Below are positions 1 to 64,000 of a stretch of DNA of 64,000 nt, piece by piece (positions within the stretch are counted from its first letter, which is position 1; every line of letters begins with the position of its first letter). The notes beneath the pieces were generated by a model. It did no database searches. It was not told the origin of the DNA and saw only the letters and a program-made list of their open reading frames with translations. This DNA comes from the human T2T-CHM13v2.0 reference genome, Homo sapiens. The stretch lies in the NCBI RefSeq assembly GCF_009914755.1, contig NC_060926.1, one strand, 5' to 3'. The position numbers and the translations under genes were made by a program.

Positions 1-1276
1 TAAAGAACATTAAGCTCACTTTTTATCCTTTCATTTTCAAGTTCTTGGGCAAGAAGCCAAAGCGCTAATATGAGTGTTCAAAAGAGAGGTTCAGGGTGGG
101 GGGTGGGAGATGGGATTGAGGGGGCATGGATTTTTCACAGTAAGAACTTGGCCTTGCAGAAGTCAACTCTTCTCATAATTTAGCCATTCTCTTTCTGTGA
201 GCTAAATTACCTTTATCTACCTCAATACCAATATTTTCTGTGCTGTCTTTGGACTCATGCATATGAACTGGCCCGTGGTATGCTCTCCTTTCTGATTGAG
301 AAATAAACCTAACGCCATGCCATGTGCAGATTTTACATAGAATCCTTTATATTAATTTACTTGCACTCTCTCAATGCAGAACCACAAGCCACTCACTCTT
401 TTCTGCCGACTATGATGTGAACTGGCTAACGTCTTTGGATGGCTGTGTCTCTGAAGATGACAGTGCTATGAACAGGGCTAGGTGCTGCTACCTCCTTGAC
501 TTTCAGGTTTGGGGATGGAGGGGCATCCTCAATATCCCGGTTTTATTCTACAGCAGCTGTGCAGAAAAGCACAAGCCTTCTATCCTGGAAGAGGTTCACA
601 ATAGAGTTCTGCCCTAGACAAGTAAAAGAAGCATCATTTTCTGCGCTACTCTACAGTGACAAAACTCTTATTTTCAACATATTTTATTTACTCTTATTTT
701 AGGGACCTTCTCAAATTTTATGGGTGATATTTTATTCCTCCAATATGTTCTTGACATGTATCTGACAATTTCAGGCAGTTAAGTACCATATTTCTATTTA
801 GTCAGCTAGTAACTACATTGCTTTACCAAAAGAACCTCACCAAAATATATCTTCCTTTTCCATCCTATCAGTCTCCTCTTTTCTTCTCTTGAATTTTCTT
901 TTCTCTTGTTTTATCTCTCACTCATGTGTGTGTGTGTGTGTCTAGAAAAACAATCTGCCAGAAGCTTTAAGCAATCGGGTTTATTGAGGCATGATTTACA
1001 AACAATAAAATCATCCTTTCTGAATTATGCAGATGGTTGTGTTTTGAGAAACACGTACAGTCATATAATAATCAAGATATAGAATATTTAGAAGATGGCC
1101 GAATAGGAACAGCTGCGGTCTACATCTCCCAGCGTGAGCAACACAGAAGACGGGTGATTTCTGCATTTCCATCTGAGGTACCGGGTTCGTCTCACTAGGG
1201 AGTGCCAGACAGTGGGTGCAGGTCAGTGGGTGCGCGCACGGTGTGCGAGCTGAAGCAGGGCCAGGCATTGCCTCAC

Positions 1277-1531
1277 TCAGGAAGCGCAAGGGGTCAGGGA
1301 GTTCCCTTTCCTAGTCAAAGAAAGGGGTGACAGACGGCACCTGGAAAATTGGGTCACTCCCACCCGAATACTGCACTTTTCCGACAGGCTTAAAAAACGG
1401 CGCACCAGGAGATTATATCCCGCACCTGGCTCGGAGGGTCCTACGCCCACGGAGTCTCGCTGATTGCTAGCACAGCAGTCTGAGATCAAACTGCAAGGCG
1501 GCAGCCAGGCTGGGGGAGGGGCGCCCGCCAT
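1277..1531 (-). CDS. ORF0: LINE-1 antisense ORF0, open, 84 aa
   Basis: Translation MAGAPPPAWLPPCSLISDCCASNQRDSVGVGPSEPG... matches primate L1 ORF0p as recalled; ATG start and no internal stop. Expression unknown. Confidence 0.8.
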   Translation of the reverse strand: MAGAPPPAWLPPCSLISDCCASNQRDSVGVGPSEPGAGYNLLVRRFLSLSEKCSIRVGVTQFSRCRLSPLSLTRKGNSLTPCAS

Positions 1532-1988
1532 TGCCCAGGCTAGCTTAGGTAAACAAAGCAGCTGGGAAGCTCAAATTGGGTGGAGCCCACCACAGCTCAA
1601 GGAGGCCTGCCTGCCTCTGTAGGCTCCACCTCTGGGGACAGGGCACAGACAAACACAAAGACAGCAGTAGTAACCTCTGCAGACTTAAATGTGCCTGTCT
1701 GACAGCTTTGAAGAGAGCAGTGGTTCTCCCAGCACGCAGCTGGAGATCTGAGAATGGGCAGACTGCCTCCTCAAGTGGGTCCCTGACCCCTGACCCCGAG
1801 CAGCCTAACTGGGAGGCACCCCCCAGCAGGGGCAGACTGACACCTCACACGGCCGGGTACTCCAACAGACCTGCAGCTGAGGGTCCTGTCTGTTAGAAGG
1901 AAAACTAACAAACAGAAAGGACATCCACACCAAAAACCCATCTGTACATCACCATCATCAAAGACCAAAAGTAGATAAAACCACAAAG

Positions 1989-3004
1989 ATGGGGAAAAAA
2001 CAGAACAGAAAAACTGGAAACTCTAAAAAGCACAGCGCCTCTCCTCCTCCAAAGGAACACAGTTCCTCACCAGCAATGGAACAAAGCTGGACAGAGAATG
2101 ACTTTGACGAGCTGAGAGAAGAAGGCTTCAGATGATCAAATTACTCCGAGCTATGGGAGGACATTCAAACCAAAGGCAAAGAAGTTGAAAACTTTGAAAA
2201 AAATTTAGAAGAATGTATAACTAGAATAACCAATACAGAGAAGTGCTTAAAGGAGCTGATGGAGCTGAAAACCAAGGCTCGAGAACTACGTGAAGAATCC
2301 AGAAGCCTCAGGAGCCGATGCGATCAACTGGAAGAAAGGGTATCAGCGATGGAAGATGAAATGAATGAAATGAAGCGAGAAGGGATGTTTAGAGAAAAAA
2401 GAATAAAAAGAAATGAGCAAAGCCTCCAAGAAATATGGGACTATGTGAAAAGACCAAATCTACGTCTCACTGGTGTACATGAAAGTGATGGGGAGAATGG
2501 AACCAAGTTGGAAAACACTCTGCAGGATATTATCCAGGAGAACGTCCCCAATCTAGCAAGGCAGGCCAACATTCAGATTCAGGAAATACAGAGAATGCCA
2601 CAAAGATACTCCTTGAGAAGAGCAACTCCAAGACACATAATTGTCAGATTCACCAAAGTTGAAATGAAGGAAAAAATGTTAAGGGCAGCGAGAGGGAAAG
2701 GTAGGGTTACCCTCAAAGGGAAGCCCATCAGACTAACAGCGGATCTCTCGGCAGAAACTCTACAAGCCAGAAGAGAGTGGGGCCAATATTCAACATTCTT
2801 AAAGAAAAGAATTTTCAACCCAGAATTTCATATCCAGCCAAACTAAGCTTCATAAGTGAAGGAGAAATAAAATCCTTTACAGACAAGCAAATGCTGAGAG
2901 ATTTTGTCACCACCAGGCCTGCCCTAAAAGAGCTCCTGAAGGAAGCGCTAAACATGGAAAGGAACAACCGGTACCAGCCGCTGCAAAATCATGCCAAAAT
3001 GTAA
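1989..3004 (+). pseudogene. L1 ORF1 (ORF1p), disrupted
   Basis: ATG at 1989 (MGKKQNRK); CpG-decay stop TGA at 2133-2135; 1-nt frameshift near 2780 (ORF track 2259..2846 then 2777..3004). Confidence 0.93.
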
Positions 3005-3067
3005 AGACCATCGAGACTAGGAAGAAACTGCATCAACTAACGAGCAAAATCACCAGCTAACATCATC

Positions 3068-6923
<3,856 letters not shown>

Positions 6924-7833
6924 ACATTGAGAACACATGGACACAGGAAGGGGAACATCACACTCTGGGGACTGTTGTGGGGTGGGGGGGAGGGGGGAGG
7001 GATAGCATTGGGAGATATACCTAATGCTAGATGATGAGTTAGTGGGTGCAGTGCACCAGCATGGCACATGTATACATATGTAACTAACCTGCACCTTGTG
7101 CACATGTACCTTAAAACTTAAAGTATAATAAAAAATATATTTAAATCACCCCAGAAAGCTTCCTCCTGTCCCTTTGTAGTCAATCTCTTTTCCCCAACCC
7201 CAGCCCCGAGCACCACTGATCCGGTTTGCTTTTTCCATATTGCCATGTAAACGAAACCATACAGTATACAACCTTTTGAATCTGACTTCTTTTACTCAGC
7301 GCAATGCATTTGAAACTTATCCGTGTTCTTCCACACATCAGTTCCTTTATATTGATAGGAAAAATTCCATTGTGTGGCTATACCACCATTTGTTTATCCA
7401 TTGAAGGACACTTGGATTGTTTCCAGTTTTTTGGAATTTAGGAATGAAGCTGTTATAAGCATTTGCATTCAAGTCTTTGTATGCATAGCTTTTTAAAAAC
7501 AGTTGATGCATTAGCTTATGTGCCTGTAGGAAAGCAAAGAAATACTGAAGGAGAAAAATCTAACGTGTATTTTTTGGAGACAGGCTGACACTGGGAGAGA
7601 AAGAAAGAAGAGAGTGAGTTTGTGCATGAGCTTGTGAAAGAAAATGAATGTTGGAATGTTTGTCTATGTTTAGAGACTTTATTGCTAGGAGGAAGGTGGA
7701 AATGTAAACAGATTGGCAGTAGTTGGTGGAACCAGTGTCATGCTGTCTCAGAGAGATACAATCATACAGTGAGGTGTTGTGACACATAAATATTTGTTGA
7801 GTAAACAAAAAGATAGAAATTGAAATCCATATC

Positions 7834-33900: not shown

Positions 33901-36900
33901 TAATATATTTTTGTGTTTTTTAAATATGATAATCTCAGAACATTTATCCCTAAAAAGAACAAATTTATGCTGGAAAAAAAGCAAGAGCATTCCTCCCTGG
34001 CTGCTGGGGGGAAATCACACTGTGGCTCTCCCCATCCCCATAACAGCCAGCATTTGTTGATCACATATGGAGCAGCTCAGTCCAAGATTGTAGCCCAGGC
34101 CTTACTTACATCCACTCATCTATGCTTCTCAACATGTCTTTGAGGAAATTACTGTTATTAGGACTTACTGACAGAGTCCGCAACCTCACTCCATCACTGC
34201 ACTAGGCTGCTGGCCACCTCCCTGTTTTTCCCCCCAAAAGAAAATAGTTGGAAATTATAATCAAGAGGTGCCTCAAAGGTTAAACCAAGCATCTAAGAGT
34301 AGGCAGAGAGAAAACAGTGACCAGAGAAGAAAGCCCATCTCTTAAGAAATAAGCAAGGGGCCGATTGCTTCTGCATTTGCTCCTGGCTCTGGGTGCAGGT
34401 GCCAATGCATCCCTGACTTCTAGATGCTCTGCATCCTTCTCCCACTACTCAGAGGAGAAACCGACAGAGATGGACCATTGCTTCCAGTTCCAAATAAGAA
34501 CTAAAATTGGGATTTCCTCTCCGGAATCCCAAGTTCAAAACTGCAAGCCAAATCACCCGGTGCAGAACAAGAACAAAAGGAGTCCCATTGACCTTGCCAG
34601 CTGGAAGAGGCCCTGCGAGTCTGAGAAGCTCCCCTTCTCCAGCACATTCTCCTCCAATCAAGACATCCCAGTGTTCCCTGCAGTTCGAACTGACAGAAGC
34701 ACAATACCCATCTTCTCAGGCGTCCTGGGTTAATTTCTTTATATATATTTTTTTGGCTCACATTTTGAAGTCTTTCCAGACTGATGGACCAAAGTGGAAA
34801 TTACAGTCCAATCGGCTATGTCCAAAACAGATGCCACATAATCACAGTCATATTAATAAAGCTGGCAACAATGAGGATAAAGAATTTCAAGGGAAGGGGG
34901 AGGGGAAACTAACACCTTCCAGAATGTGTCTGACTGATTGAATGCTCCTGCCCAGAAACAGGTTTCCCTGAGAAATCTGAAGTTGGCTTTTTCCCTATCT
35001 AAACTCCAAATCCATCCTTGTATTTAATATTTTTTACAGGTTCGATGAAGGGGAGAAAAGGGAAACATTTGCTCAAATTTTTCGGTCTTCACAGCACTTG
35101 GGGTCTCATTTATGCGTGGGTTTCCAGCTGTGCATGACATACGTCACTGTAAACTGGCACATCTTTCCATCAGCAAGCACAGCACAACCACAAGTTTGGC
35201 AAGCATTTCATGTTGCCAGATGCCTTCACCGTTTCTTAAACTATGTATTCCAGGCACTCCACTTTTTTCTTGCTGGAAATACTTTCAAAGAAGAACACAA
35301 TGTTTTGGGTTGCCTGGCCAAAGTTTAGCTGTACTTTTGCATCTTTGCCAAACTTCCTGTTTTTAGCAAAACAATTTATTATCTTGCTGATTCTTTAGAC
35401 CCAAAAGGATTTGCAGGCACAAATAACTACTTGGTTTCCATGTCTTTTCACAGAAGAAACTCATTCCCTTTCCCATAATTATCCTGTAGATGTTAGAACA
35501 GAAACATATTTAACCTTTGGGAGTGCTACCAAGGTGTAGAAAAGGTTTTAATTATTCAAGACTTCTACCGTCTGCACTTTAAAGAACCGACGATTATTTT
35601 TGGTGTGCAAGAAAAATAATTCTTTTCAGGTGGTTTGGCAAGATCACAGATCTGCCGCATGTGGTATTGTAGAAGCAATTTTGGAGTGAGTTTGGGTTTA
35701 AAGTCCAGGGTTAGACTAAAGAGATTTGATTGATCAGCAGCAATCAAAGAAAGCATTCAACTGGACACTTTTATGAATAGTTATCTCTGATTACTAAGCC
35801 ACACAGTCACTTATTTACCATTATCACCAGAAAGCAAAACAAAAGCAAAACACTACCAGCCTTCCCCATCCCCACCTATCAGCAACTAGCCTGACTACCA
35901 ACCAATAAATAGATTAAGAAGAAATTTTTTATTCTCAACTACATTAGATTAAGTTAGCCACACACAGTTACACAGTCTCAGTTTTCTAGAACATATGTTA
36001 TCTATAGCAACACAGGTGCACAGACACATATAGTCATTTAGATAGGCTTTTCTCATAATCACCAGTACAGTATCAGAGCAACATTGGCAACCATATACCC
36101 AACTCTTCAGCGAAATACATTTCTAGGGTAGAATTTACCTCCACTTAGATAGATGGACCCGATCGTAATATTTCCAAGTTTCAAAAATTACTTCACAATA
36201 CCAGCAGAGGCCAGGGAACTGATAATGTTGATTTCCTGTATGTTCGTGCTTCAAAGATCTTAGAATTCTTTGATGGTGACTTAGAAACAACTATAAAAAT
36301 AATGGCTCCTTAAAACAGAGAGAGTCAAAGGGCAAGACTTTTTAGAGGAAATGGTTAATATTAATGAGAGAGTGCACTGTAGTCTGACAATAGACCAACA
36401 TCAGCACTTTAAGAAGAATGCATCTAACTTAAGCAAGAGAGGGCCAGTTTCTGAATTTCCATTTGTGAATTATTCCTCCAGATTAAAGCAGAGAAAAAGA
36501 CAGCATGTATCAGATACATGGAGAGGTAAATTGATTGATTGGTAGCTAGATGATTGCTAGATAGGGATATGAGTGCACGTATGCTGGTGGTGTGTCTTTT
36601 TTTTTTTTTTTTTTTTCATTTCTCCGTTTTCTTCTTCTTTTTTAAGATCCATGTTCTGATAATTCCCTTGAGTAAATACTGGCCAAGAAAAGAAAAAAGA
36701 AGTCAAAGTAGCAATTCAACAGTCTAGAGCACATGAATAGAGGAGAGCATTGAAAGGGAAGGTTTTTATAAGGAATTGCCACTCACATCAAGCCTCTCAG
36801 GCATTGCAGCTAAGTGTACGCCAAGCAAAGGTGGCCCAAGATTTCTTTTAAACTCTTCTAAAAGGTGAGAATGTGCCTTTCTAATTAACTTTAGGATATG

Positions 36901-37890
36901 TTGCTTTAAAGAGTTATTTTTAACATTTAAACATAAACAATATCAGTACTAAATATAAGATCAAAGAAATACTGTTTCCATATGGAGTTGCCAAAGCACA
37001 GAAGCATGGCTGGAAAGTACAAGTTTCCTTTGAAGGTGGTGTTGCTATCAGTATTGCTTACTCAGCAGTCTATTAATATCAAAATAAAGTGCACATATAC
37101 ACATATATTCATTATATCCTGCCTGGTGTAAAAAAATTTCACTCTTCCCACCCTTAAAAACAAAATCCAACATCCCAAACCTAGGCCTTCAGGGCCCTTT
37201 CACTAGTTTTTTTTTCCAAATGAACACATTTAAAGTAATGTTTGAAGCCTGTGGTATCAGAATTTATTTCTACAAAGTTAACTCTATTTAATATCCTTGG
37301 CTCTAAGCTTAATTTGCTAAATCATGCTGTTTTTGAAATTTATTGCAAAATTATTGTTCTCTAGGGAAATAATTACCATTCCTCTTCTATGGCATTGCTT
37401 TCCTCTGCATGTGAATTTAAGTAAAGAGATTTAAAATCAGCTCTGTGTTTGAGTAGGTATCAATCAAGACAGGGCGATCTAATATTATATTTGAGTTTAA
37501 AAGAATATATTCTGTTCACTCAAATATCTGATTTTTCTGAATGAGAACAATAGGACATTAAAATTAGAAAAGAATCCTAAGAAATGATTGTATGCATCTA
37601 TTTATTTATAGACTGCCTTGTTGGAAGGATCCTAGGCAGCTTAGAAGGATATATAAAATTTAGCAACATTACATAAATTAGAAGTGGACATAAAGCAAAG
37701 GAGAAAACACCAGCATAAAAATATAAAATGGAACCAGCAATGGAGCTAATATAAGCTCACAGACTTCCATACATGAAGCATAAATTTGACTCAGACTTTT
37801 TAGTTTCAAGGTAAAAACAAAAACTTGCTCAAGACTACATGACTCATCAGTAATTGAGGTGTTCAGAACTTCACAACAGAAGTTCAAAAC

Positions 37891-38647
37891 GCTTTACCAA
37901 TTATTTGTTTGGAAGCAGACTATGATTTCTCATCCTCTGCAGTGAATGCTGTTGTGGTAATAAGGAGGAGGAGGTTGACCATACTGTGTCTGTTTTTCAA
38001 TATTTTGGTAATGCTTCCTGATTCTCTTTTGGGGAATTGCCTTTCCCTTGTTTTAAGTGAAGATGCTGTGTCCCTGTCCCTCCCAAGCTCCCACCTGGCC
38101 CAATCTGACTTTGTCCCACCCAGGACATTGAATCTTAAACAGGCTGTGCAATAGCAAGAGGAGACAAATGACTGTGGCTGCTTCCTTCCCAGTGGTTGTG
38201 CACAACCAAGAAAGTGACTGGTTTGTGCTAATGCCCAGGTTCCAGTCCCTCTCAGAGCCTGGTTCTCCAACCTTCCTATCAGTTCTTTGAACCATCCAAT
38301 ATCAACCAGTAAATGTCTTTTCTGCTTAAGTTCTGTTGCCTAAAACCACAGAACCCTAAGTGAAACACAATGTGAGCCAGGCTACCTAAGTGCAAATGGG
38401 TTAAATGATGTGTCTGGAGCCTATAGGGAATTTTAGTTAATTGTGGAACCCTGAAACTCTAATGCCCAATTTACTGCAAAATGGATATGATGTAGAAATA
38501 ATTATTGGTGAAGAACATTTCCGTCCACAGCAATAATCATTGCCAAATGACATGCATCTTTTTTCTTCATTAAAATGTTTTGAATGTGCTTCTCTGTCCT
38601 GTGTAGGACATGGATGTATTTAGGAAAACATTTTGGGAAACTATCAC
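37891..38647 (+). repeat. Direct repeat copy 1 (757 bp), abutting the HERV-H 5' LTR
   Basis: gctttaccaattatttg...gggaaactatcac; near-identical to 44261-45023. Confidence 0.99.
38050..38368 (+). mobile_element. Old ERVL LTR fragment (LTR33/LTR16-like) inside the duplicated block (second copy ~44420-44744)
   Basis: ccaaccttcc...cagtaaatgtcttttctgcttaag...agaaccctaagtgaaaca resembles the LTR33-type 3' end. Confidence 0.5.
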
Positions 38648-39099
38648 TGTCAGGCCTCTGAGCCCAAGCGAAGCCATCGCATGCCCTGTGACTTGCACGT
38701 ATATGCCCAGATGGCCTGAAGTAACTGAAGAATCACAAAAGAAGTGAATATGCCCTGCCCCACCTTAACTGATGACATTCCACCACAAAAGAAGTGTAAA
38801 TGGCCGGTCCTTGCCTTAAGTGATGACATTACCTTGTGAAAGTCCTTTTCCTGGCTCATCCTGGTTCAGAAGCTCCCCCACTGTGCACCTTGCGACCCCC
38901 ACTCCTGCCTGCCAGAGAACAAACCCCCTTTGACTGTAATTTTCCTTTACCTCCCCAAATCCTATAAAACGGCCCCACCCTTATCTCCCTTCACTGACTC
39001 TCTTTTCGGACTCAGCCCGCCTGCACCCAGGTGAAATAAACAGCCATGTTGCTCACACAAAGCCTGTTTGGTGGTCTCTTCACACGGACGTGCATGAAA
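38648..39099 (+). promoter_or_regulatory. 5' LTR7 (U3-R-U5) promoter/enhancer
   Basis: TGTCAGGCCTCTGAGCCC...GCATGAAA; TATAAA 38963; AATAAA 39035; ACAAAAGA motifs at 38735 and 38785. Confidence 0.95.
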
Positions 39100-39101
39100 T
39101 T

Positions 39102-39119
39102 TGGTGCCGTGACTGGGAT
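39102..39119 (+). other. Primer-binding site complementary to tRNA-His 3' end
   Basis: TGGTGCCGTGACTGGGAT vs canonical TGGTGCCGTGACTCGGAT (1 mismatch). Confidence 0.92.
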
Positions 39120-39242
39120 TGGGGGACCTCCCTTGGGAGATCAATCCCCTGTCCTCCTGCTCTTTGCTCTGTGAGAAAGATCCACCTACGACCTCAGGTC
39201 CTCAGACCGACCAGCCCAAGAAACATCTCACCAATTTCAATT

Positions 39243-39251
39243 CCGGTAAGT
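39243..39251 (+). promoter_or_regulatory. HERV-H major splice donor (CCG|GTAAGT)
   Basis: Strong GTAAGT donor ~145 nt after the 5' LTR, the usual HERV-H position. Confidence 0.75.
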
Positions 39252-39532
39252 GGCCTCTTTTTACTCTCTTCTCCAGCTTCCCTCACTATCCCACAACCTC
39301 TTTCTCCTTTCAATCTTGATGCCACACTTCAATCTCTTCCTTCTCTTAATTTCAATTCCTTTCATTTTCTGGTAGAGACAAAGGAGACACGTTTTATCCG
39401 TGGACCCAAAACTCCCACGCCAGTCACGGACTGGGAAGGCAGCCTTCCCTTGGTGTTTAATCATTACAGGGACGCCTCTGATTGTTCACCCACTTTTCAA
39501 AGGTGTCAGACCATGCAGGGACGCCTGCCTTG

Positions 39533-39755
39533 GTCCTTCACCCTTAGCGGCAAGTTCCGCTTTTCTGGGGAAGGGGCAAATACCCCAACCCCTTCTCTCC
39601 TTGTCTCTACTCCTTCTCTGCTTTTCTGGGAGAGGGGTAAGTACCCCTCAACCCCTTCTCCTTCACCCTTAGCGGCAAGTCCCGCTTTTCTGGGGCAGGG
39701 GCAAATACCCCTCAACCCCTTCTCCTTCACCCTTAGCGGCAAGTCCCGCTTTCCT
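39533..39755 (+). repeat. HERV-H leader internal repeats (tccttcacccttagcggcaagt... x3)
   Basis: Three copies visible near 39534, 39659 and 39723. Confidence 0.85.
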
Positions 39756-40818
39756 AGGGGGCAAGAACCCCCCAGTCGCTTATTTCCGCACCCCAACCTC
39801 TTATCTCTGTGCCCCAATCCCTTATTTCTGCACCCTGACCTCTTATCTGTGCCCCAATCCCTTATTTCCGTGCTCCAACCCCTTCTCTGCTTTTCTGGAG
39901 GGCAAGAACCCCCCACCCCTTCTCCATGTCTCTACTCTTTTCTCTGGGCTTGCCTCCTTCACTATGGGTAAGCTTCCACCTTCCGTTCCTCCTTCTTCTC
40001 CCTTAGCCTGTGTTCTCAAAAACTTAAAACCTCTTCAACACACACCTGACCTATAAATGCCTTATTTTCTTCTGCAATGCCGCTTGACCACAATACAAAC
40101 TCGACAGTAGTTCCAAATGGCCGGAAAACGGCACTTTCAATTTTTCCATCCTACAAGATCTAAATAATTCTTGTCGTAAAATAGGCAAATGGTCTGAGAT
40201 GCCTGACGTCCAGGCATTCTTTTACACATCAGTCCCTTCCTAGTCTCTGTGCCCAGTGCAACTCGTCCCAAATCTTCCTTCTTTCCCTCCCGGCTGTCCC
40301 CTCAGTCCCAACCCCAAGTATCGCTGAGTCTTTTTAATCTTCCTTTTCTACAGACCCATCTGACCTCTCCCCTCCTCACCAGCCCAAGCTAGGTCCCAAT
40401 TCTTCCTCAGCCTCCGCTCCTCCACCCTATAATCCTTTTATCACCTCCCCTCCTCACACCTGGTTGGGCTTACAGTTTCGTTCTGTGACTAGCCCTCCCC
40501 CACCTGCCCAGCAATTTACTCTTAAAAAGGTGGCTGGAGCCAAAGGCATAGTCAAGGTTAATGCTCCTTTTTCTTTATCCCAAATCTGATAGCTTTTAGG
40601 CTCTTTTTCATCAAATATAAAAACCCAGCCCAGTTCATGGCTCATTCGGCGGCAACCCTGAGACGCTTTACAGCCCTAGACCCTAAAAGGTCAAAAGGCC
40701 ATCTTATTCTCAGTATACATTTTATTACTCAATCTGCTCCCGACATTAAATAAAACTCCAAAAATTAGAATCTGGCCCTCAAACCCCACAACAGGACTTA
40801 ATTAACCTCACCTTCAAG

Positions 40819-41172
40819 GTGTACAATAATAAAAAAAAAAAGTTGCAATTCCTTGCCTCCACTGCGAGACAAACCCCAGCCACATCTCCAGCACACAAGA
40901 ACTTCCAAACGCCTGAACTACAGTGGCCAGGCGTTCCTCCAGAACCTCCTCCCCAAGGAGCTTGCTACAAGTGCCAGAAATCTGGCCACCAGGCCAAGGA
41001 ATGCCTGCAGCCCAGGATTCCTCCTAAGCCGCGTCCCATCTGTGCAGGACCCCACTGGAGATCAGACTATTCAACTTACCTGGCAGCCACTCCCAGAGCC
41101 CCTGGAACTCTGGCCCAAGGCTCTCTGACTGACTCCTTCTTGGCTTACCGGCTGAAGACTGACGCTGCCTGA
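40819..41172 (+). pseudogene. gag: HERV-H gag remnant (nucleocapsid)
   Basis: CYKCQKSGHQAKEC CCHC knuckle; second knuckle degenerate (RPICAGPHWRSDY). Confidence 0.88.
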
Positions 41173-41228
41173 TCGCCTGGGAAGCCCTGTAGACCATCAC
41201 GGATGCCGAGCTTTAGGTAACTCTCACA

Positions 41229-43400
41229 GTGGAAGGTAAGTCCGTCCTCTTCTTAATCAATATGGAGGCTACCCACTCCACATTACCTTCTTTTCAAGGG
41301 CCTGTTTCCCTTGCCTCCATAACTGTTGTGGGTATCGACAGCCAGGCTTCTAAGCCTCTTAAAACTCCCCAACTCTGGTGCCAACTTAAACAACACTCTT
41401 TTATGCACTCTTTTTTAATTATCTCCACCTGCCCAGTTCCCTTATTAGGCCGAGATATTTTAACCAAATTATCTGCTTCCCTGACTATTCCTGGACTATA
41501 GCTGCATCTCATTGATGCCCTTCTTCCCAATCCAAAGCCTCCTTTGCTTCCTCCTCTTGTATTCCCCCACCTTAACCCACAAGTATAAGATACCTCTACT
41601 CCCTCCTTGGCGACCGATCATGCACCCCTTACCATCTCATTAAAACCTAATCACCCTTACCCCACTCAACGCCAATATCCCATCCCACAGCACACTTTAA
41701 AAAGATTAAAGCCTGTTATCACTCGCCTGCTACAACATGGCCTTTTAAAGCCTATAAACTCTCCTTAGGATTCCTCCATTTTACCTGTCCTAAAACCAGA
41801 CAAGTCTTACAGATTAGTTCAGGATCTGCGTCTTATCAACCAAATTGTTTTGCCTATCCACCCTGTGGTGCCCAACCTGTACACTCTTTTGTCCTCAATA
41901 CCTTCCTCCACAACTCACGATTCCGTGCTTGATCTTAAAGATGCTTTTTTCACTATTCCCCTTCACCCCTCGTCCCAGCCTCTTCGCTTTCACTTAGACT
42001 GACCCTGACACCCATTAGGCCCAGCAAATTACCAAGGCTGTACTGCCGCAAGGCTTTATAGACAGCCCCCATTACTTCAGTCAAGCCCAAATTTCTTCCT
42101 CATCTGTTACCTATCTCGGCATAATTCTCATAAAAACACACGTGCTCTCCCTGCCAATCGTGTCCGACTGATCTCTCAAACCCAAGCACCTTCTACAAAA
42201 CAACAACTCCTTTCCTTCCTAGGTATGGTTAGTGCGGTCAGAATTCTTACACAAGAGCCAGGACCGCACCCTGTAGCCTTTCTGTCCAAACAACTTGACC
42301 TTACTGTTTTAGCCTAGCCCTCATGTCTGCGTGCAGTGGCTGCCGCTGCTTTAATACTTTTAGAGGCCCTCAAAATCACAAACTATGCTCAACTCACTCT
42401 CTACAGTTCCATAACTTCCAAAATCTATTTTCTTCCTCATACCTGATGCATATACTTTCTGCTTCCTGGCTCCTTCAGCTGTACTCACTCTTTGTTAAGT
42501 CCCACAATTACCATTGTTCCTGGCCCAGACTTCAATCTGGCCTCCCACATTATTCCTGATACCACACCTGACCCCCATGACTGTATGTCTCTGATCCACC
42601 TGATATTCACCCCATTTCCCTATATTTCCTTCTTTCCTGTTCCTCACCCTGATCATGCTTGATTTATTGATGGCAGTTCCACCAGGCCTAATCGCCTCAC
42701 ACCACCAAAGGCAGGCTATGCTATAGTACAAGCCACTAGCCCACCTCTCAGAACCTCTCATTTCCTTTCCATCGTGGAAATCTATCCTCAAGGAAATAAC
42801 TCCTCAGTGTTCCATCTGCTATTCTACTACTACTCCTGGATTATTCAAGCCCCCTCCCTTCCCTACACATCAAGCTTGAGGATTTGCCCCCACCCAGGAC
42901 TGGCAAATCAGCTTTACTCAACATGTCCGGAGTCAGGAAACTAAAATACCTCTTAGTCTAAATAGACACTTTCACTGAATAAGTAAAGGCCTTTCCTACA
43001 GGGTCTGAGAAGGCCACCACAGTCATTTCTTCCCTTCTGTCAGACATAATTCCTCAGTTTAGCCTTCCCACCTCTATACAGTCTGATAACAGACCGGCCT
43101 TTATTAGTCAAATCAGCCAAGCAGTTTTTCAGGCTCTTAGTATTCAGTGAAACCTTTATATCCCTTACAGTCCTCAGTCTTCAAGAAAAGTAGAACGGAC
43201 TAAAGGTCTTTTAAAAACACACCTCGCCAAGCTCAGCCACCAACTTAAAAAGGACTGGACAATACTTTTACCACTTTCGCTTCTCAGAATTCAGGCCTGT
43301 CCTCAGAATGCTACAAGGCACAGCCCATTTAAGCTCCTGTATAGACGCTCCTTTTTATTAGGCCCCAGTCTCATTCGACACCAGACCAACTTAGACTGTG
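41229..43400 (+). pseudogene. pol: HERV-H pro-pol remnant, deleted and disrupted
   Basis: Protease-like FLINMEATHS (catalytic DTG lost) and LLGRD; RT QDLRLIN and LDLKDAFF; RNase H IDGSS; integrase-like DWQ segment; many stops. Confidence 0.85.
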
Positions 43401-43844
43401 CCCCAAAAAAACTTGTCATCCCTACTATCTTTTTTCTAGTCATACTCCTATTCACTGTTCTCAACTACTCATACATGCCCTGCTCTTGTTTACACTGCTG
43501 GTTTACACTGTTTCTCCAAGCCATCACAGCTGATATCTACCTTTTATACCTGTTTTTCTCCTTCTCTTATTCCATTTAGTTTTTCAATTCATACAAAACC
43601 GTATCCAGGCCATCACCAATCATTCTATATGACAAATGTTTCTTCTAACAACCCCACAATATCACCCCTTACCACAAGACCTCCCTTCAGCTTAATCTCT
43701 CCCGCTCTAGGTTCCCACGCCGCCCCTAATCCCGCTTGAAGCAGCCCTGAGAAACATCACCCATTCTCTCTCCATACCACCCCCCAAAAATTTTCACTGC
43801 CCCAACACTTCAACACTATTTTGTTTTATTTTTCTTATTAATAT

Positions 43845-43857
43845 AAGAAGGCAGGAA
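43845..43857 (+). other. Polypurine tract
   Basis: aagaaggcaggaa immediately before the TG of the 3' LTR. Confidence 0.8.
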
Positions 43858-44263
43858 TGTCAGGCCTCTGAGCCCAAGCCAAGCCATCGCATCCCCTGTG
43901 ACTTGCACGTATACACCCAGATGGCCTGAAGTAACTGAAGAATCACAAAAGAAGTGAATATGCCCTGCCCCACCTTGACTGATGACATTCCACCACAAAA
44001 GAAGTGTAAACGGCCAGTCCTTGCCTTAAGTGATGACATTACCTTATGAAAGTCCTTTTCCTGGCTCATTCTCACTCAAAAACACCCCCACTGAGCACCT
44101 TGCGACCCCCACTCCTGCCCGCCAGAGAACAAACCCCCTTTGACTGTAATTTTCCTTTACCTACCCAAATCCTATAAAACGGCCCCACCTTTATCTCCCT
44201 TTGCTGACTCTCTTTTTGGACTCAGCCCGCCTGCACCCAGGTGAAATAAACAGCCATGTTGCT
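43858..44263 (+). mobile_element. 3' LTR7, truncated (last ~46 bp, approximately U5, missing)
   Basis: Colinear with 38648-39053; stops at ...aataaacagccatgttGCT. Confidence 0.96.
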
Positions 44264-45023
44264 TTACCAATTATTTGTTTGGAAGCAGACTATGATTTCT
44301 CATCCTCTGCAGTGAATGCTGTTGTGGTAATAAGGAGGAGGAGGTTGACCATACTGTGTCTGTTTTTCAATATTTTGGTAATGCTTCCTGATTCTCTTTT
44401 GGGGAATTGCCTTTCCCTTGTTTTAAGTGAAGATGCTGTGTCCCTGTCCCTCCCAAGCTCCCACCTGGCCCAATCTGACTCTGTCCCACCCAGGACATTG
44501 AATCTTAAACAGGCTGTGCAATAGCAAGAGGAGACAAATGACTGTGGCTGCTTCCTTCCCAGTGGTTGTGCACAACCAAGAAAGTGACTGGTTTGTGCTA
44601 ATGCCCAGGTTCCAGTCCCTCTCAGAGCCTGGTTCTCCAACCTTCCTATCAGTTCTTTGAACCATCCAATAATCAACCAGTAAATGTCTTTTCTGCTTAA
44701 GTTAAGTTCTGTTGCCTACAACCACAGAACCCTAAGTGAAACACAATGTGAGCCAGGCTACCTAAGTGCAAATGGGTTAAATGATGTGTCTGGAGCCTAT
44801 AGGGAACTTTAGTTAATTGTGGAACCCTGAGACTCTAATGCCCAATTTACTGCAAAATGGATATGATGTAGAAATAATTATTGGTGAAGAACATTTCCGT
44901 CCACAGCAATAATCATTGCCAAATGACATGCATCTTTTTTCTTCATTAAAATGTTTTGAATGTGCTTCTCTGTCCTGTGTAGGACATGGATGTATTTAGG
45001 AAAACATTTTGGGAAACTATCAC
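44261..45023 (+). repeat. Direct repeat copy 2 (763 bp)
   Basis: Matches 37891-38647 apart from 4 substitutions and two indels of 1 bp and 5 bp (manual comparison). Confidence 0.99.
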
Positions 45024-45275
45024 CATACAGCCAACCTCTGTGTTAGACTTAAACATTAATATTGCAAAATCTTTTATTTCTCCTAATAAATACTGCCTAA
45101 TCTTAACATTGCTGAAACCCAACCACATGAATCATACTTTATATGTGATAGTTTATGTCGATGATGGGATTTTTTTTTCTCCCCTTTAAAGTTCTGGACT
45201 GAAAAGAGAGTGGAACAAGAACTACCAAGTACCCAGAACAGTCCTGAAGGCCCATTAGGCCACGGGGGATGAGCC

Positions 45276-45480
45276 TGATGATGTTCTGGTAAATGTTTCA
45301 CAGCAGATTCTCCAAAAAACAAAGCTCTGATTTCTAGTGCTTGCAAATTTCTGTGGTAAACATACTCCTACCATGGCCAATGTCAAGCTACTAATATGAT
45401 GTCACCAAACACAGAATTGGAAAGAGGTGTACACAAAGGGCTCTCACAAGCTGGTGCTAACTGGCTCCAGTGCCCCACTG
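45276..45480 (-). mobile_element. MER63-like hAT MITE
   Basis: ccatggccaatgtcaagcta...ggctctcacaagctggtgctaactggctccagtgccccactg. Confidence 0.7.
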
Positions 45481-45894
45481 GAAAGGTCCCTCCTGATCCC
45501 TCTCCTCTAACTGAGTCCAAGGAAGGACCTCCAAGGAACCAGCAATCCATTACTCTGGTGGCTCGTGTTCTTCTTCTAGAAGAAACATTTGAAACCTCTG
45601 TGGTGAAGTTGATCTCTGTAAACCAGTCAGCTAACTAATGGGTAATAGAAGTGTCTCTCTCTTCCTACCTGAGAATCGTCCTCTGCAATGTCAGAGTGAA
45701 CAGAAATGATTCATCATGAATAGGCTTGCTAAGTGAAAAGCATCCTTTAGTTTCCATTCAAGAGAATGTTCATTTAAAGACAAAGCGACCTGCTTTAGCT
45801 ATGAAAAACAAATGAGTTGAAAATATATGCTTTTTTGCAAGAAAAAAAAATCACAACTCAAAGGCAAAGTATACTAAAGTACAGTTTAAGACAG

Positions 45895-46125
45895 AGTAAT
45901 GTCATGGTGAAGAACATGTGCCCTAAATCCAGCAATCTGGACTTGAACACTGGCTCAGCTTCTGGGGGGCTGCAACTGCCCTTGGGCAAGTAACTTAAGT
46001 TACAGAACCTCAGTTTGCTCCTCTGCAAAATGAAAATGTCAATAGGGTTTCCATGAGAACTTAGATAATAAGATGCAAGTAAAGGACTTGGAACAGAGTC
46101 TGGCACCTGGTAAGTTGTTAACGTC
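45895..46125 (+). mobile_element. MIR
   Basis: ccttgggcaagtaacttaa...cctcagtttgctcctctgcaaaatg core. Confidence 0.7.
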
Positions 46126-48739
46126 ATTGCCCTTTGATTGTCCAGTCTGCCCTTTCACAGAACTCAGCGTGTTTGGGTTTCCTTTCCTAAGATGCAGCAG
46201 CTGCCAGTAAAGTCCATTCACCCCAGAATAAGGGTCTGGTAAATGAACTATTTGCAGAAAGCCAGGCCTTGCAGGGTGCTTTCAATGGGCAAGAGGACAC
46301 GATGACAGGTGCCGACGAGGTATTCCTCTCCACTTCCTGGGAAAGAGGGCAAGCCTGTAACAGGTGCAGTCATGGGGGCCCCAGTAGGGGATGGCTGAGA
46401 GGATGAAGCTTCCATTTTCAGAGTTTGGATGAAAACAATCAGAGCCCCTTTTCCAGTGGAACTTGTAACTGCTTACTCATCACAAATAACTTAAAGCATG
46501 TCATCACCATTCCTGGCTGCAGGAATGAATCCTGCCCAGAGAGGAGATCTGTTTTCTTCCTTAAAGCCCTAAGAGTGTTCTGCTTCAATTCCCTGTGTGG
46601 GACATAGATATATTAAATACAAAAAAAAATGACCATAAAGTGAACATTAAGGTTGAGAAATGAGGTCTGAGGATGCCAGGAAATTCAAAAGTAAGTGTTC
46701 CCCCAGCACCTCTAATTCAGCCATCTTTGCAGTAATGCATCCTTTCCGATTTCTGAATCCTCAGCGGAATTCCCATTTCACATAGACTCTGGATCCTTCA
46801 ACTAAGCCAGGGGAGGGATGTTTGGGGGTTCCTCTCCCTCCTTCTCATTTCCCCAGGTCGTGGGAAAATCCTGTCTAGGACCCTTCCACCAAGACCTTGA
46901 ATGAGGCCAGGCATGGCAAAGTACTCTTGAGAGCCCCAGGGAGGAGCTCAGCCCCAGGAGGCTGGACTAGTTCCTTTCCCAGCCCCTCCCGGAGAGCCAG
47001 GAGGCTACTCCTGGCTCCACATAGCAAATGTATACATGCAGATATCCAGGATGCATTAGTGGTTCGACACAACTGATGTGCTCAGGCACCTCCGGGGTAC
47101 ATTAGTTGAAGTGGCTACGGCAGCTGGTGGCTCCTCTTCAGCCATAATTTATCTATTGCACTTTACTTAATGTGCAAAATTAAATTTATGCTGAATCTGT
47201 GTGTATTACCTACTGTGCATGAACGGCATGAAATATACCACAAAGCAAATCAGCACAGAGCCATGCTCTTAATTGCTAATGGCTTTCAACACACTTCATT
47301 GTGATCTAAACCAACTTGGAATCCATTCTCCATTGAGAATCCCACTCATATCGAGGTTGAAAGTGCTTCTTCCGAGAACCTTCTGGAGAACTGAAGGAGA
47401 CAATGAGCAATGCTTTTAACTCAATCTTTCTAGAACACATGTTCTCTAGATCACAGATTCTGCACTTTTCACTAATATCGTGATCAATACAGTTGCTACA
47501 AAGGGCATGGATTTGCTGAAAACTAAGCAAATCAATGTGAAATATATTTTCGAAGTAAAATAAAGGAAATAACCCAAGATTCAGTCCTAGTTCTGAAACT
47601 GCCAGTCTATGGGACTGGCTCTGAGTGTCTGGTTCCATGCATTAAAACTTAATAATTGGAATAATTGATTTCTGCATCTAATTAGAAAAAAAATCTATAC
47701 AACCAAGTAAAGTAAATTTTATAAAAAACAAATATCTCAAAAGAAGCTTTAAAAAAATCTGATGTCACATGCATCCACACACATTCTCACACACCCAAAT
47801 TTACACAAAGCAGAAATTAATTCACGTTTGAAATCTGATTCCACAAAGGAATTTAATTGAGGAATCAGAAAGGAAGAAAATAAGAAGTACACGGGCAATG
47901 GAGAAAATTAAATGTGACTATGTGTCTGCCAACAGTAATTATTCAAAATGTTTTCTGTGTTTCTTATCATTTTAAACTCTGCTTTAAAACTACAGAGATC
48001 ATTTCTCATGAAAAGAAAAAGTTATTTGCTCTGCTGTTTACATTTGTACTGGAAAGGAGCCATCTGTGGAAATCTCATATTCCTCCCTTGAAAATAATTT
48101 GTAATTCTCCTCGCCTAAAGGACAGAGGAAAAATAAGAAAACCAGTGACTATATTACTTTTTAGATGTTATCTTTACATATTTTTCAGTAGGTAACTATG
48201 AGTATAAAAATTTCAAAAATATACCAGCCTTGTGAAGCTCAGAACTTTTACAAAAATAAGGAAATTATGTTAGGAAGAGTCAGAGTGATCGTTTTATTTA
48301 TTCTATTCCTCCTTGTTATATCTCCCATGTTAAAATCGGGACATTATTCACTAAGGATTTTAATCTAACATTTCAAAGGTTTTGTTCAGTTATAGTGGTT
48401 CTTGATCTTCTGTGGTTTGTGATTGAAAAACTAAAATGTAGATATGAAATGGCATTCATACATAAATAAGTGTACATACATGTACATGCATTCTTTCAGT
48501 CACTGTCCTGTTGGATTATAATTGTTTGAATAAGTATGTATGTAGAAATGGGTTTCCCCATCACTTCTATTTTTGAATGCATAAATTACATTGTTTTCTG
48601 ATTATTTAATGGTAGTAAACATACTTCTAGAGGTGAGATGCACTAGTGGCATCTGAGTCATTTTCTTTTTCTGAAAAAGCTATGTTAAAATCAAAGGCAA
48701 CTCTCAGTAGAAAACATTAATTGAGCAACTACTAGATAT

Positions 48740-61976: not shown

Positions 61977-62012
<36 letters not shown>

Positions 62013-63365
62013 TTTCTTCATCCAATCATCTGTTGATGGACAGTTAGGTTGATTCCCTGTCTTTGCAATTGTGAATAGTACTGTGATAAACATACAAGGG
62101 CAGCATTTTTCTTGATACGGTGATTTCTTTTCCTTTGGGTAGATAACCAGTAGTGGGATTGCTGGATAGAATGGTAGTTCTATTTTTAGTTCTTTGAGAA
62201 ATCTCTAGATTTTTTTCATAGCAGTTGTACTAATTTACACTCCCCCCAACAGTGTATAAGTGTTCCCTTTTCTCCACATCTTCACTGACATCTGTTATTT
62301 TTTGACTTTTTAATAATAGCCATTCTGATTGGTGTGAGCTATCTCATTGTGATTTTAATTTGCATTTCTCTGATGATTAGTGATTTTGAACATTTTTTTC
62401 CATAGGCTTTTTGACCATCTGTATGTCTCCATTTAAAAAATGGTGTATTCATGTCCTTTGCACACTGTTTAATGGGGTTATTTGTGCTTTTGTTGTTGTA
62501 ATTGAGTTATTTGAGCTCCTTGTAAATTCTGGGTATTAGTGGCCTGTTGTATGCATAGTTTTAAAATATTTTCTCTCATTTTGTGGGTTATCTGTTCACT
62601 CTGTTGATTATTTCTTTTGCTATGCAGAAGCTTTTTAGTTTAATAAGTCCTATTTGTCTATTTTTGTTTTTGTTGCTTGTGCTTTTGAGGGCTTAGTTAC
62701 GAATTCTTTGATGAGACCAATGTTCAGAAGAGTTTTCCCTAAGTTTTCTTCTAGTATTTTTATAGTTTCAGGTCTCACGTTTAAGTCTTTAATCCACCTT
62801 GAGTTGACTTTTGCATATGGTGAAAGTTAAGGGTCTAGTTTTATTCTGCATATGGCAATCCAATTTCCCAGTACCGTTTATTGAAAAGGGTGTCCTTTCC
62901 TCAGTGTACATTTTTGTCAACTTTATCAGAGATCAGTTGGCAGTAGATATGTGGTTTATTTCTGAGTTATTATGTTCTATTGATCTATGTGTCTATTTTT
63001 ATACCAGCATCATGCTGTTTTGGTTACTATAGCCTTGTAGTATAATTTTAGGTAACGTAATATGATGCTGTCAGCTTTGTTCTTTTTGCTGAGTATTGCT
63101 TGGGCTACTTAGGCTCTTTTTTGGTTCCATATGAATTTTAGTAATTTTTTCTATTTCTGCAAAAAATAACATCCATATTTTGATAGGGATTACGTTGAAT
63201 ATATAAGTTGTTTGTGCAGTATGATCATTTTAATATTATTAATTCTTCTAACTCATGAGCATGGGATGTTTTTCTTCGTGTGTGCGTCATTTCTTTCTTC
63301 AGTATTTTGTAGTTTTCCTTGTAGATATCTTTTACCTCTTTGGTTAAATGCAGTCTTAGGTATTT
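61577..63365 (-). mobile_element. 5'-truncated L1 (L1MA/L1PB-age), 3' ~1.8 kb
   Basis: Antisense 3'UTR and ORF2 C-terminal sequence (ORF track MFITVLFTIAK...); decayed. Confidence 0.9.
61909..62010. repeat. (TG)n-(TA)n-(CA)n compound microsatellite within the L1
   Basis: Directly visible. Confidence 0.92.
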
Positions 63366-64000
63366 TATTTTATTTATATATTTTGCATTTCCACAGAATT
63401 TTCATTATTATATTATTTTCTCTGAGAATAATTAATCTATTAATTATATTAATCTCTCTGTTATTATATATATTTGAAGTTTTTCATAATAAAAATTAGA
63501 TTTACAAAAGGAATAAAGCTGACAAAATGAAGTTCATCAATGCTGCTATTCCCAGTTGGCAATATCTGGTCAAGGAAACAGGATGGCTGAATAAAGCCTG
63601 TGGCCCACCAGGTAGCTCAGAGCTCCTGCATGTCTTCTTGTTTTCTGTGACAGTGTAACAGCAGCACACTGTCACAGATGCAGGTGATCCACCCTTTCCT
63701 GCCAGACCACATTTTCTCTTCTCACAGACCATCATTCACAAGGCAAGAAGAATTTTACTTCACTTTACTCATCATTGACAAAGGCTGCCCTAAGACCATC
63801 TTCCAGGTTCAGGTCTAAATTAAATGAAAAAATGACAGAAGGAAGAAGGAAACTACCATTTCTTGAAGCTTCATGACTACCCATGCACAAAGTGAGGTAC
63901 CTGGGCCATCATATTGATTATGTTCGCATTTTACCCTGAAATGGATGTTTAAGATATACATCACATACTTGGGGGCAGGCATATATCTGGGGCTTGGAGC

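What the first reader, a model, noticed from the sequence alone, without database searches (positions are those of the whole stretch)
37891..44260. Predicted scarless excision: recombination between the repeats would regenerate an empty pre-integration allele
Two ~99% identical 760-bp direct repeats 6370 bp apart are a longer and more similar NAHR/SSA substrate than the LTRs (406 bp, ~95%). A crossover would delete the whole provirus and leave no solo LTR, a product indistinguishable from a never-inserted allele; the reciprocal product is a tandem provirus. The locus could thus mimic a recent HERV-H insertion polymorphism.
Basis: inference. Interest (0 to 1): 0.7.

Follow-up and report, generated by a model that had tools for sequence, protein, structure and literature searches.

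The report
Botched retroviral integration, long host duplication
An old HERV-H provirus sits between two 760-base copies of host DNA, likely left by an integration that went wrong at one end, so recombination between the copies would remove the virus without trace; this kind of arrangement is already known for HERV-K, and no such loss turned up in the limited tables searched.

Summary
The repeats are real: 37891-38647 and 44261-45023 differ by 4 substitutions and 2 indels and flank an LTR7up1 HERV-H provirus. Its 5' LTR is whole and abuts the first repeat. Its 3' LTR lacks the last 46 bp and joins the second repeat through 3 bp of microhomology. This is the anatomy of one-ended (aberrant) retroviral integration shown for HIV and ASLV vectors and proposed for HML-2 21q21.1 (450-bp duplication). 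The repeats are the better recombination substrate (perfect runs up to 220 bp against 61 bp in the LTRs), and a crossover would leave one host copy and no viral DNA. That idea is already in print for HML-2 6p25.2 (Kahyo 2017). The product would not be strictly indistinguishable, because six sites mark the copies. I found no short allele, but I could search only partial variant tables and no ape genomes. The repeats look younger than this LTR pair; most of the gap comes from CpG decay and one 25-bp cluster, so a later duplication is a rival, not the favourite. Verdict: a new, long, HERV-H member of a known kind, with excision unproven.

The parts
37891..38647 (+). Host repeat A (left copy, 757 bp), ends at the first base of the provirus
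   Evidence: only two matches in the assembly
38643..38647 (+). Last 5 bp of A (ATCAC), the likely integrase target 5-mer; the same 5-mer ends A' at 45019-45023
   Evidence: 8 of 9 control proviruses have exact 5-bp TSDs
38648..39099 (+). 5' LTR, complete, 452 bp, LTR7up1; TATA-like at 38963, AATAAA at 39035
   Evidence: subfamily label from Carter 2022 supplements
39100..39118 (+). Primer-binding site directly after the 5' LTR
   Evidence: sequence; same motif follows 17 of 48 other LTR copies; match to tRNA-His is recalled
39100..43857 (+). Decayed HERV-H internal region (4758 bp, many stops); gag zinc knuckle in the frame 40750-41172
   Evidence: ORF list; Pfam zf-CCHC E 1.5e-05 in 1 of 4 pieces scanned
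43845..43857 (+). Polypurine tract before the 3' LTR
   Evidence: sequence; same ending precedes 25 of 48 other LTR copies
43858..44263 (+). 3' LTR, 406 bp, stops 13 bp after AATAAA (44245) and lacks the terminal 46 bp
   Evidence: the missing tail occurs nowhere else in the window except the 5' LTR
44261..44263 (+). 3-bp microhomology (GCT) shared by the LTR end and the start of the host repeat
   Evidence: chance about 0.02-0.05
44261..45023 (+). Host repeat A' (right copy, 763 bp), runs into unique host DNA at 45024

Best explanation
A HERV-H provirus with one normal end and one cut-short end lies between two near-identical 760-bp copies of host DNA, likely the fossil of an integration in which integrase joined only the left end and host repair joined the right. 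Inferred steps: integrase joined the U3 end at ATCAC|TG; the free U5 end lost 46 bp, paired through GCT with host DNA 757 bp upstream, and was extended by a host polymerase, so the target was duplicated over 757 bp instead of 5. Predicted consequence: the host copies, not the LTRs, are the preferred homology, so rare crossover or annealing would delete 6370-6376 bp and leave no viral DNA. Shown: the anatomy and the sequence differences. Not shown: the order of events, and that a deleted allele exists.
For: The repeat ends exactly at the first LTR base and starts exactly at the broken LTR end. Varadarajan 2016 (passages) describes one normal end, a truncated other end, a short homology at the junction and host duplications of hundreds to thousands of bp. 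Macfarlane and Badge 2015 (passages) give the same reading for a 3'-truncated HML-2 provirus with a 450-bp duplication. Truncation is not a family trait: 38 of 39 other 3' LTRs, picked by their internal region, keep their native end (36 by BLAST to position 445 or more, 2 more by the terminal motif), and 8 of 9 control proviruses have exact 5-bp TSDs. A provirus of the same span (5613 bp) and with the same distinctive LTR start is in GRCh38. With CpG-type changes removed, A/A' (4 of 757) differ only weakly from control LTR pairs (46 of 3626; Fisher p 0.09, Poisson 0.04).
Against: The repeats are much closer to each other than this element's own LTRs: 4 of 757 against 22 of 406 (p 2e-7), still 14 of 406 without CpG-type changes (p 2e-4), and p 0.03 to 0.09 once the 25-bp cluster of 8 changes is counted as two events or left out. 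One event should give both pairs one age. The two LTRs share no rare state and are as far apart as unrelated copies. The controls were chosen partly for likeness to these LTRs, which biases their divergence low, so the true gap to A/A' may be larger. Three bases of microhomology fit any end-joining or template switch. No ape sequence could be examined.
Confidence: 0.64

Rival explanations
1. The provirus integrated normally with a 5-bp TSD; later a break or stalled fork in the 3' LTR end was repaired by copying A from upstream and rejoining at the old TSD (two template switches).
For: A/A' look younger than the LTR pair. GCT and the old ATCAC TSD would both serve as microhomologies.
Against: Needs two switches, the second exactly at the LTR edge, and must pass over 400 bp of LTR homology in favour of 3 bp. 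Five of six A/A' differences lie within 155 bp (p 0.03), which also fits old copies partly homogenised by gene conversion.
Confidence: 0.22
2. While the insertion was still segregating, a non-homologous join between a provirus-bearing chromosome (broken in the 3' LTR) and an empty homologue (entered 757 bp upstream) made the structure in one step.
For: One event; explains why A' runs into unique flank with no viral base.
Against: Needs the empty allele to be present; 178 of 208 LTR7up1 copies are shared with gorilla (Carter 2022, passages), so the event would be nearly as old as the insertion and would not explain the young-looking repeats better than the favoured model.
Confidence: 0.08
3. 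A tandem duplication existed first and the provirus entered it, with later deletion (Kahyo's pseudo-TSD models).
For: Offered by Kahyo 2017 as a general alternative.
Against: The right end of the repeat would have to coincide by chance with the integration base.
Confidence: 0.04
4. Assembly artefact.
For: Near-identical repeats can be falsely duplicated.
Against: The copies differ at six sites, both junctions are precise, and GRCh38 carries a provirus of the same span.
Confidence: 0.02

Closest known systems
Aberrant (one-ended) retroviral integration in HIV-1 and ASLV vectors (Varadarajan 2016, PMC5041404; passages read)
   Same: One normal end, one truncated end, short junction homology, host duplication of hundreds of bp.
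   Different: Here a germline fossil of a gamma-like ERV; the empty target and the event itself are not observed.
HML-2 loci with long target-site duplications: 21q21.1 (450 bp, 3'-truncated provirus), 7p21.2 (250 bp), 4q32.1 (206 bp), 6p25.2 (111 bp, truncated provirus) (Kahyo 2017, PMC5488345, parts 1-3 of 4 read; Macfarlane and Badge 2015, PMC4422153, passages)
   Same: Long direct host repeats abutting an ERV, some with a truncated 3' end; recombination between them already proposed to recreate a 'preintegration' allele at 6p25.2, where empty alleles segregate although chimpanzee and orangutan carry the provirus.
   Different: This is HERV-H, the repeat (757 bp) is longer than any in Kahyo's table (whose scan stopped at 500 bp and covered HML-2 only), and no empty allele is known here.
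HERV-H provirus/solo-LTR dimorphism (Thomas 2018, PMC6298018, section 8 and passages; Schloissnig 2025, PMC12350158, passages)
   Same: Homology-driven loss of a HERV-H provirus that segregates in people (67 of 720 candidates; 111 HERVH LTR-flanked deletions in 1,019 genomes).
   Different: Those leave a solo LTR; recombination between A and A' would leave none.

Membership tests
HERV-H provirus, LTR7up1 | LTR7-type LTRs closely related to other copies | tested here: met
   Both LTRs match 39-40 other copies at 96-97%; listed as LTR7up1 in Carter 2022 supplements, locus matched by span and LTR start sequence
HERV-H provirus, LTR7up1 | PBS after the 5' LTR, polypurine tract before the 3' LTR, retroviral internal region | tested here: met
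   the tRNA-His assignment is recalled
Normal retroviral integration | Two complete LTRs and a 5-bp TSD | tested here: not met
   3' LTR lacks 46 bp; duplication is 757 bp; controls 8 of 9 with 5-bp TSD
One-ended aberrant integration | One end with a normal virus-host junction | tested here: met
   LTR starts TG directly after the repeat end
One-ended aberrant integration | Other end truncated, with short homology to the appended host DNA | tested here: met
   46 bp missing, 3-bp microhomology; longer imperfect homology not significant
One-ended aberrant integration | Host duplication bounded by the integration site | tested here: met
   A ends at 38647, A' starts at the broken end
One-ended aberrant integration | Duplication as old as the insertion | tested here: inconclusive
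   Younger-looking than this LTR pair (p 2e-4 without CpG), only weakly so against control pairs (p 0.04-0.09)
One-ended aberrant integration | Single copy of A at the empty site in an outgroup; same junction in all carriers | not testable with these tools
   no ape genome is held
ERV locus with a recombination-derived empty allele (6p25.2 type) | Long, near-identical flanking repeats above usual homology needs | tested here: met
   220-bp perfect run, 6.4 kb apart; Gu 2008 (passages) gives a 20-fold drop from 232 to 134 bp in mitosis, 300-500 bp for meiosis, but under 50 bp at alpha-globin repeats 5 kb apart
ERV locus with a recombination-derived empty allele (6p25.2 type) | An empty allele segregates in people | tested here: inconclusive
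   no row in the partial tables searched; full call sets not available
L1-mediated processed HERV copy | Starts at R, ends in poly(A) | tested here: not met
   full U3 at the 5' end and no A-tail at the junction

The most novel reading that the evidence does not exclude
A 6.37-kb deletion between the host repeats segregates or recurs in people: a HERV-H provirus active in stem cells reverts to an empty-looking site, giving what would be scored as the first HERV-H insertion polymorphism although the family stopped moving millions of years ago, and a natural knockout of an LTR7up1 enhancer.
Probability: 0.18. Interest if true: 0.6.

Novelty: new member of a known kind. Interest (0 to 1): 0.32.

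Why it matters
It extends long target-site duplications and one-ended integration from HML-2 to HERV-H, with a repeat longer than those tabulated for HML-2. It is a clean test locus for the question Kahyo 2017 left open (retained ancestral empty site or recombination product), because six marker sites can be typed and, according to Carter 2022, no polymorphic HERV-H insertion was known. It is also a caution for ERV presence/absence markers and for LTR-pair dating. The element carries NANOG, KLF4, H3K4me3 and H3K27ac marks and is in the top seventh for nascent transcription in Carter's table, so a deleted allele would test a stem-cell enhancer.

Tried and rejected
Extended imperfect homology at the junction (a shared 7-mer about 11 bp past GCT): at the best-scoring lengths (20-25 bp) 12-15% of GCT-starting host sites score as well, and more at other lengths, so it adds nothing to the 3 bp. 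A conversion donor for the 25-bp LTR cluster: each LTR's 24-mer is unique in the assembly. A near-identical source element for a DNA-level copy: best other matches 97% (LTRs) and 98% (301 bp of internal region). An inherited truncation shared by the subfamily: 38 of 39 ends intact; the one truncated copy (L080) has no direct repeat of its 278-bp flank. L1-type processed copy: no poly(A), full U3. Polarising the six sites with an older repeat family: no useful homologue in held DNA. A recalled PRDM9-like 13-mer: no match in 36001-47000. Ape status from paper supplements: Gemmell 2019 is keyed by identifiers I could not map (part 1 of 19 read), Gemmell 2016 uses alignment-block coordinates, Glinsky 2022 has no row, Zhuo 2021 showed no chr2 row among those displayed (one file not searched, one cut). 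Audano 2019 was not held under the id I tried. Print searches for this locus or for long repeats at HERV-H gave 0 papers; broader ones led only to HML-2 cases. Mamedov 2004 and Oh 2006 are known to me only through the papers that cite them.
Full report
Observation. Self-comparison of the window finds the pair 37891-38647 / 44261-45023 at 98.7% and the pair 38648-39053 / 43858-44263 at 94.6%. Global alignment gives 4 substitutions and 2 indels for the host repeats, with perfect runs of 220, 188, 24, 17, 87, 23 and 192 bp, and 22 substitutions in 406 bp for the LTRs, longest perfect run 61 bp. The host repeat matches only these two places in the assembly.

Anatomy. The order is A, 5' LTR, internal region, 3' LTR, A'. 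A ends in ATCAC and the LTR starts at the next base. The 5' LTR is 452 bp and is followed by the primer-binding site, as in 17 of 48 other close LTR copies. The 3' LTR follows the polypurine tract but stops at LTR position 406, 13 bp after AATAAA; its last three bases (GCT) are also the first three of A. A' ends in ATCAC and runs into unique host DNA. The internal region is decayed; a gag zinc knuckle was found in 1 of 4 ORF pieces scanned. Carter 2022 (PMC8912925; supplements searched, main-text passages read) lists a provirus at GRCh38 chr2:66243890-66249502, 5613 bp, LTR7up1, whose LTR start matches the window's but for one base; I take it as this locus. It scores positive for top-seventh GRO signal, NANOG, KLF4, ZNF534, H3K4me3 and H3K27ac, and negative for RNA and OCT4. 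That paper places most LTR7up1 insertions before the human-gorilla split (178 of 208 in gorilla, 14 in orangutan) and states that no polymorphic HERV-H insertion had been found.

How unusual. Of 39 other proviruses picked by their internal 3' region, 36 align to LTR position 445 or beyond, two more end in the terminal motif after a small indel, and one (L080) stops at 243; its flank has no direct repeat. Of 9 control proviruses with both LTRs in hand, 8 have an exact 5-bp TSD (for L021, which has two tandem LTRs, I used the closer one). So the broken end and long repeat are private to this locus.

Origin. Varadarajan 2016 (PMC5041404, passages) reports that when integrase joins only one end, the other is often truncated, usually shows a short homology with the appended DNA, and is most often joined to a host duplication hundreds to thousands of bp long. 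Each of these features is present here, with the duplication bounded by the integration base. Macfarlane and Badge 2015 (PMC4422153, passages) read the 3'-truncated HML-2 at 21q21.1 with its 450-bp duplication the same way. I put this at 0.64. The steps are inferred; only the end structure is seen.

The age problem. One event should give repeats and LTRs the same age, yet they differ: 0.53% against 5.4% (p 2e-7). The LTR pair is the outlier. Control pairs differ at 74 of 3626 sites (2.0%), 46 of them not CpG-type (1.3%). In the window pair 8 of 22 changes are CpG-type and 8 more fall in one 25-bp stretch (p 0.0009 for such a cluster); the other 6 in 381 bp are near the control rate. Against controls the host repeats are low but not clearly so (Fisher 0.09, Poisson 0.04); against this pair the gap stays at p 2e-4 with the cluster counted in full, 0.03 as two events and 0.09 without it. 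The controls are biased towards low divergence by how they were picked. The two LTRs share no rare state, do not group in the tree (weak support throughout) and are as far apart as unrelated copies (mean 4.4%, 5-95% range 2.8-6.2%, 23 of the 39 copies used); neither cluster variant has a match elsewhere. Five of the six A/A' differences lie within 155 bp (p 0.03), which would fit partial gene conversion, but the test is post hoc. A later duplication therefore keeps about 0.2-0.3.

The host repeats offer 220 bp of perfect match against 61 bp, while control LTR pairs offer 74-275 bp. Gu 2008 (PMC2583991, passages) puts the mitotic drop between 232 and 134 bp and the meiotic need at 300-500 bp, with exchanges under 50 bp at repeats 5 kb apart. 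So the repeats are a usable, modest substrate and the better one here. The product would be 6370-6376 bp shorter and hold no viral base. As a base rate, 67 of 720 HERV-H proviruses were candidates for a deleted allele in one panel (Thomas 2018, PMC6298018, section 8) and 111 HERVH LTR-flanked deletions were seen in 1,019 genomes (Schloissnig 2025, PMC12350158); from these I judge the chance of a segregating short allele here at about 0.15-0.2. The only 2p14 row in Thomas's supplements is another locus; I do not know if this one was among the 720. Schloissnig's supplementary workbook (cut when stored, not the full call set) has no such deletion. Zhuo 2021 (PMC7849402, supplements) showed no human-chimpanzee indel here among the rows displayed. 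These blanks are weak; unseen call sets and closed supplements could change them.

Comparison and novelty. Kahyo 2017 (PMC5488345, parts 1-3 of 4) lists eight HML-2 loci with repeats of 13-450 bp and says that at 6p25.2 recombination between 111-bp TSDs may have produced the preintegration state. What I did not find in print is a HERV-H case or this locus (open-access library only). The locus works like the 21q21.1 and 6p25.2 cases and meets the three structural tests for one-ended integration; the age test is inconclusive and the outgroup test could not be run. It is a new member of a known kind, interest 0.32, rising to about 0.6 if a short allele is found.

Noticed in passing
window about 44505 (CHM13 chr2:66260505), inside A': Schloissnig 2025 supplementary table 18 lists a 323-bp polymorphic Alu insertion here. 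The same site sequence is in A at about 38135, so the copy it was mapped to may be ambiguous; on carrier haplotypes it would break the homology between the repeats.
   Followed up: partly
window 38860-38884 and 44070-44094: Eight non-CpG differences between the two LTRs fall in 25 bp (p 0.0009); both LTRs carry private states there and no donor copy was found. Unexplained.
   Followed up: partly
window 38648-39053 and 43858-44263: The two LTRs are as unlike as unrelated LTR7up copies and share no rare state; they may not be sister LTRs (conversion from a lost copy, or mixed templates at reverse transcription; both untested).
   Followed up: partly
window 44245-44285: The broken 3' LTR keeps AATAAA but loses what follows; host DNA supplies TGTTTGG one base further from the signal than in the 5' LTR (alignment). 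It could keep 3' end formation near normal; not significant as homology and untested.
   Followed up: partly
L080 (G000:C15:34090896-34091426): Another HERV-H whose 3' LTR stops at position 243; 30 bp of its flank recur inverted about 3 kb away.
   Followed up: partly
L021 (G000:C23:93149325-93150239): HERV-H with two tandem LTRs at its 5' end separated by a PBS stub.
   Followed up: no
window 1124-7150 and 62011-63375: A long decayed repeat with five frames of 223-395 aa on the plus strand, likely an old L1 (not tested), and an inverted 74% match to its part 5393-6766 near the window end.
   Followed up: no
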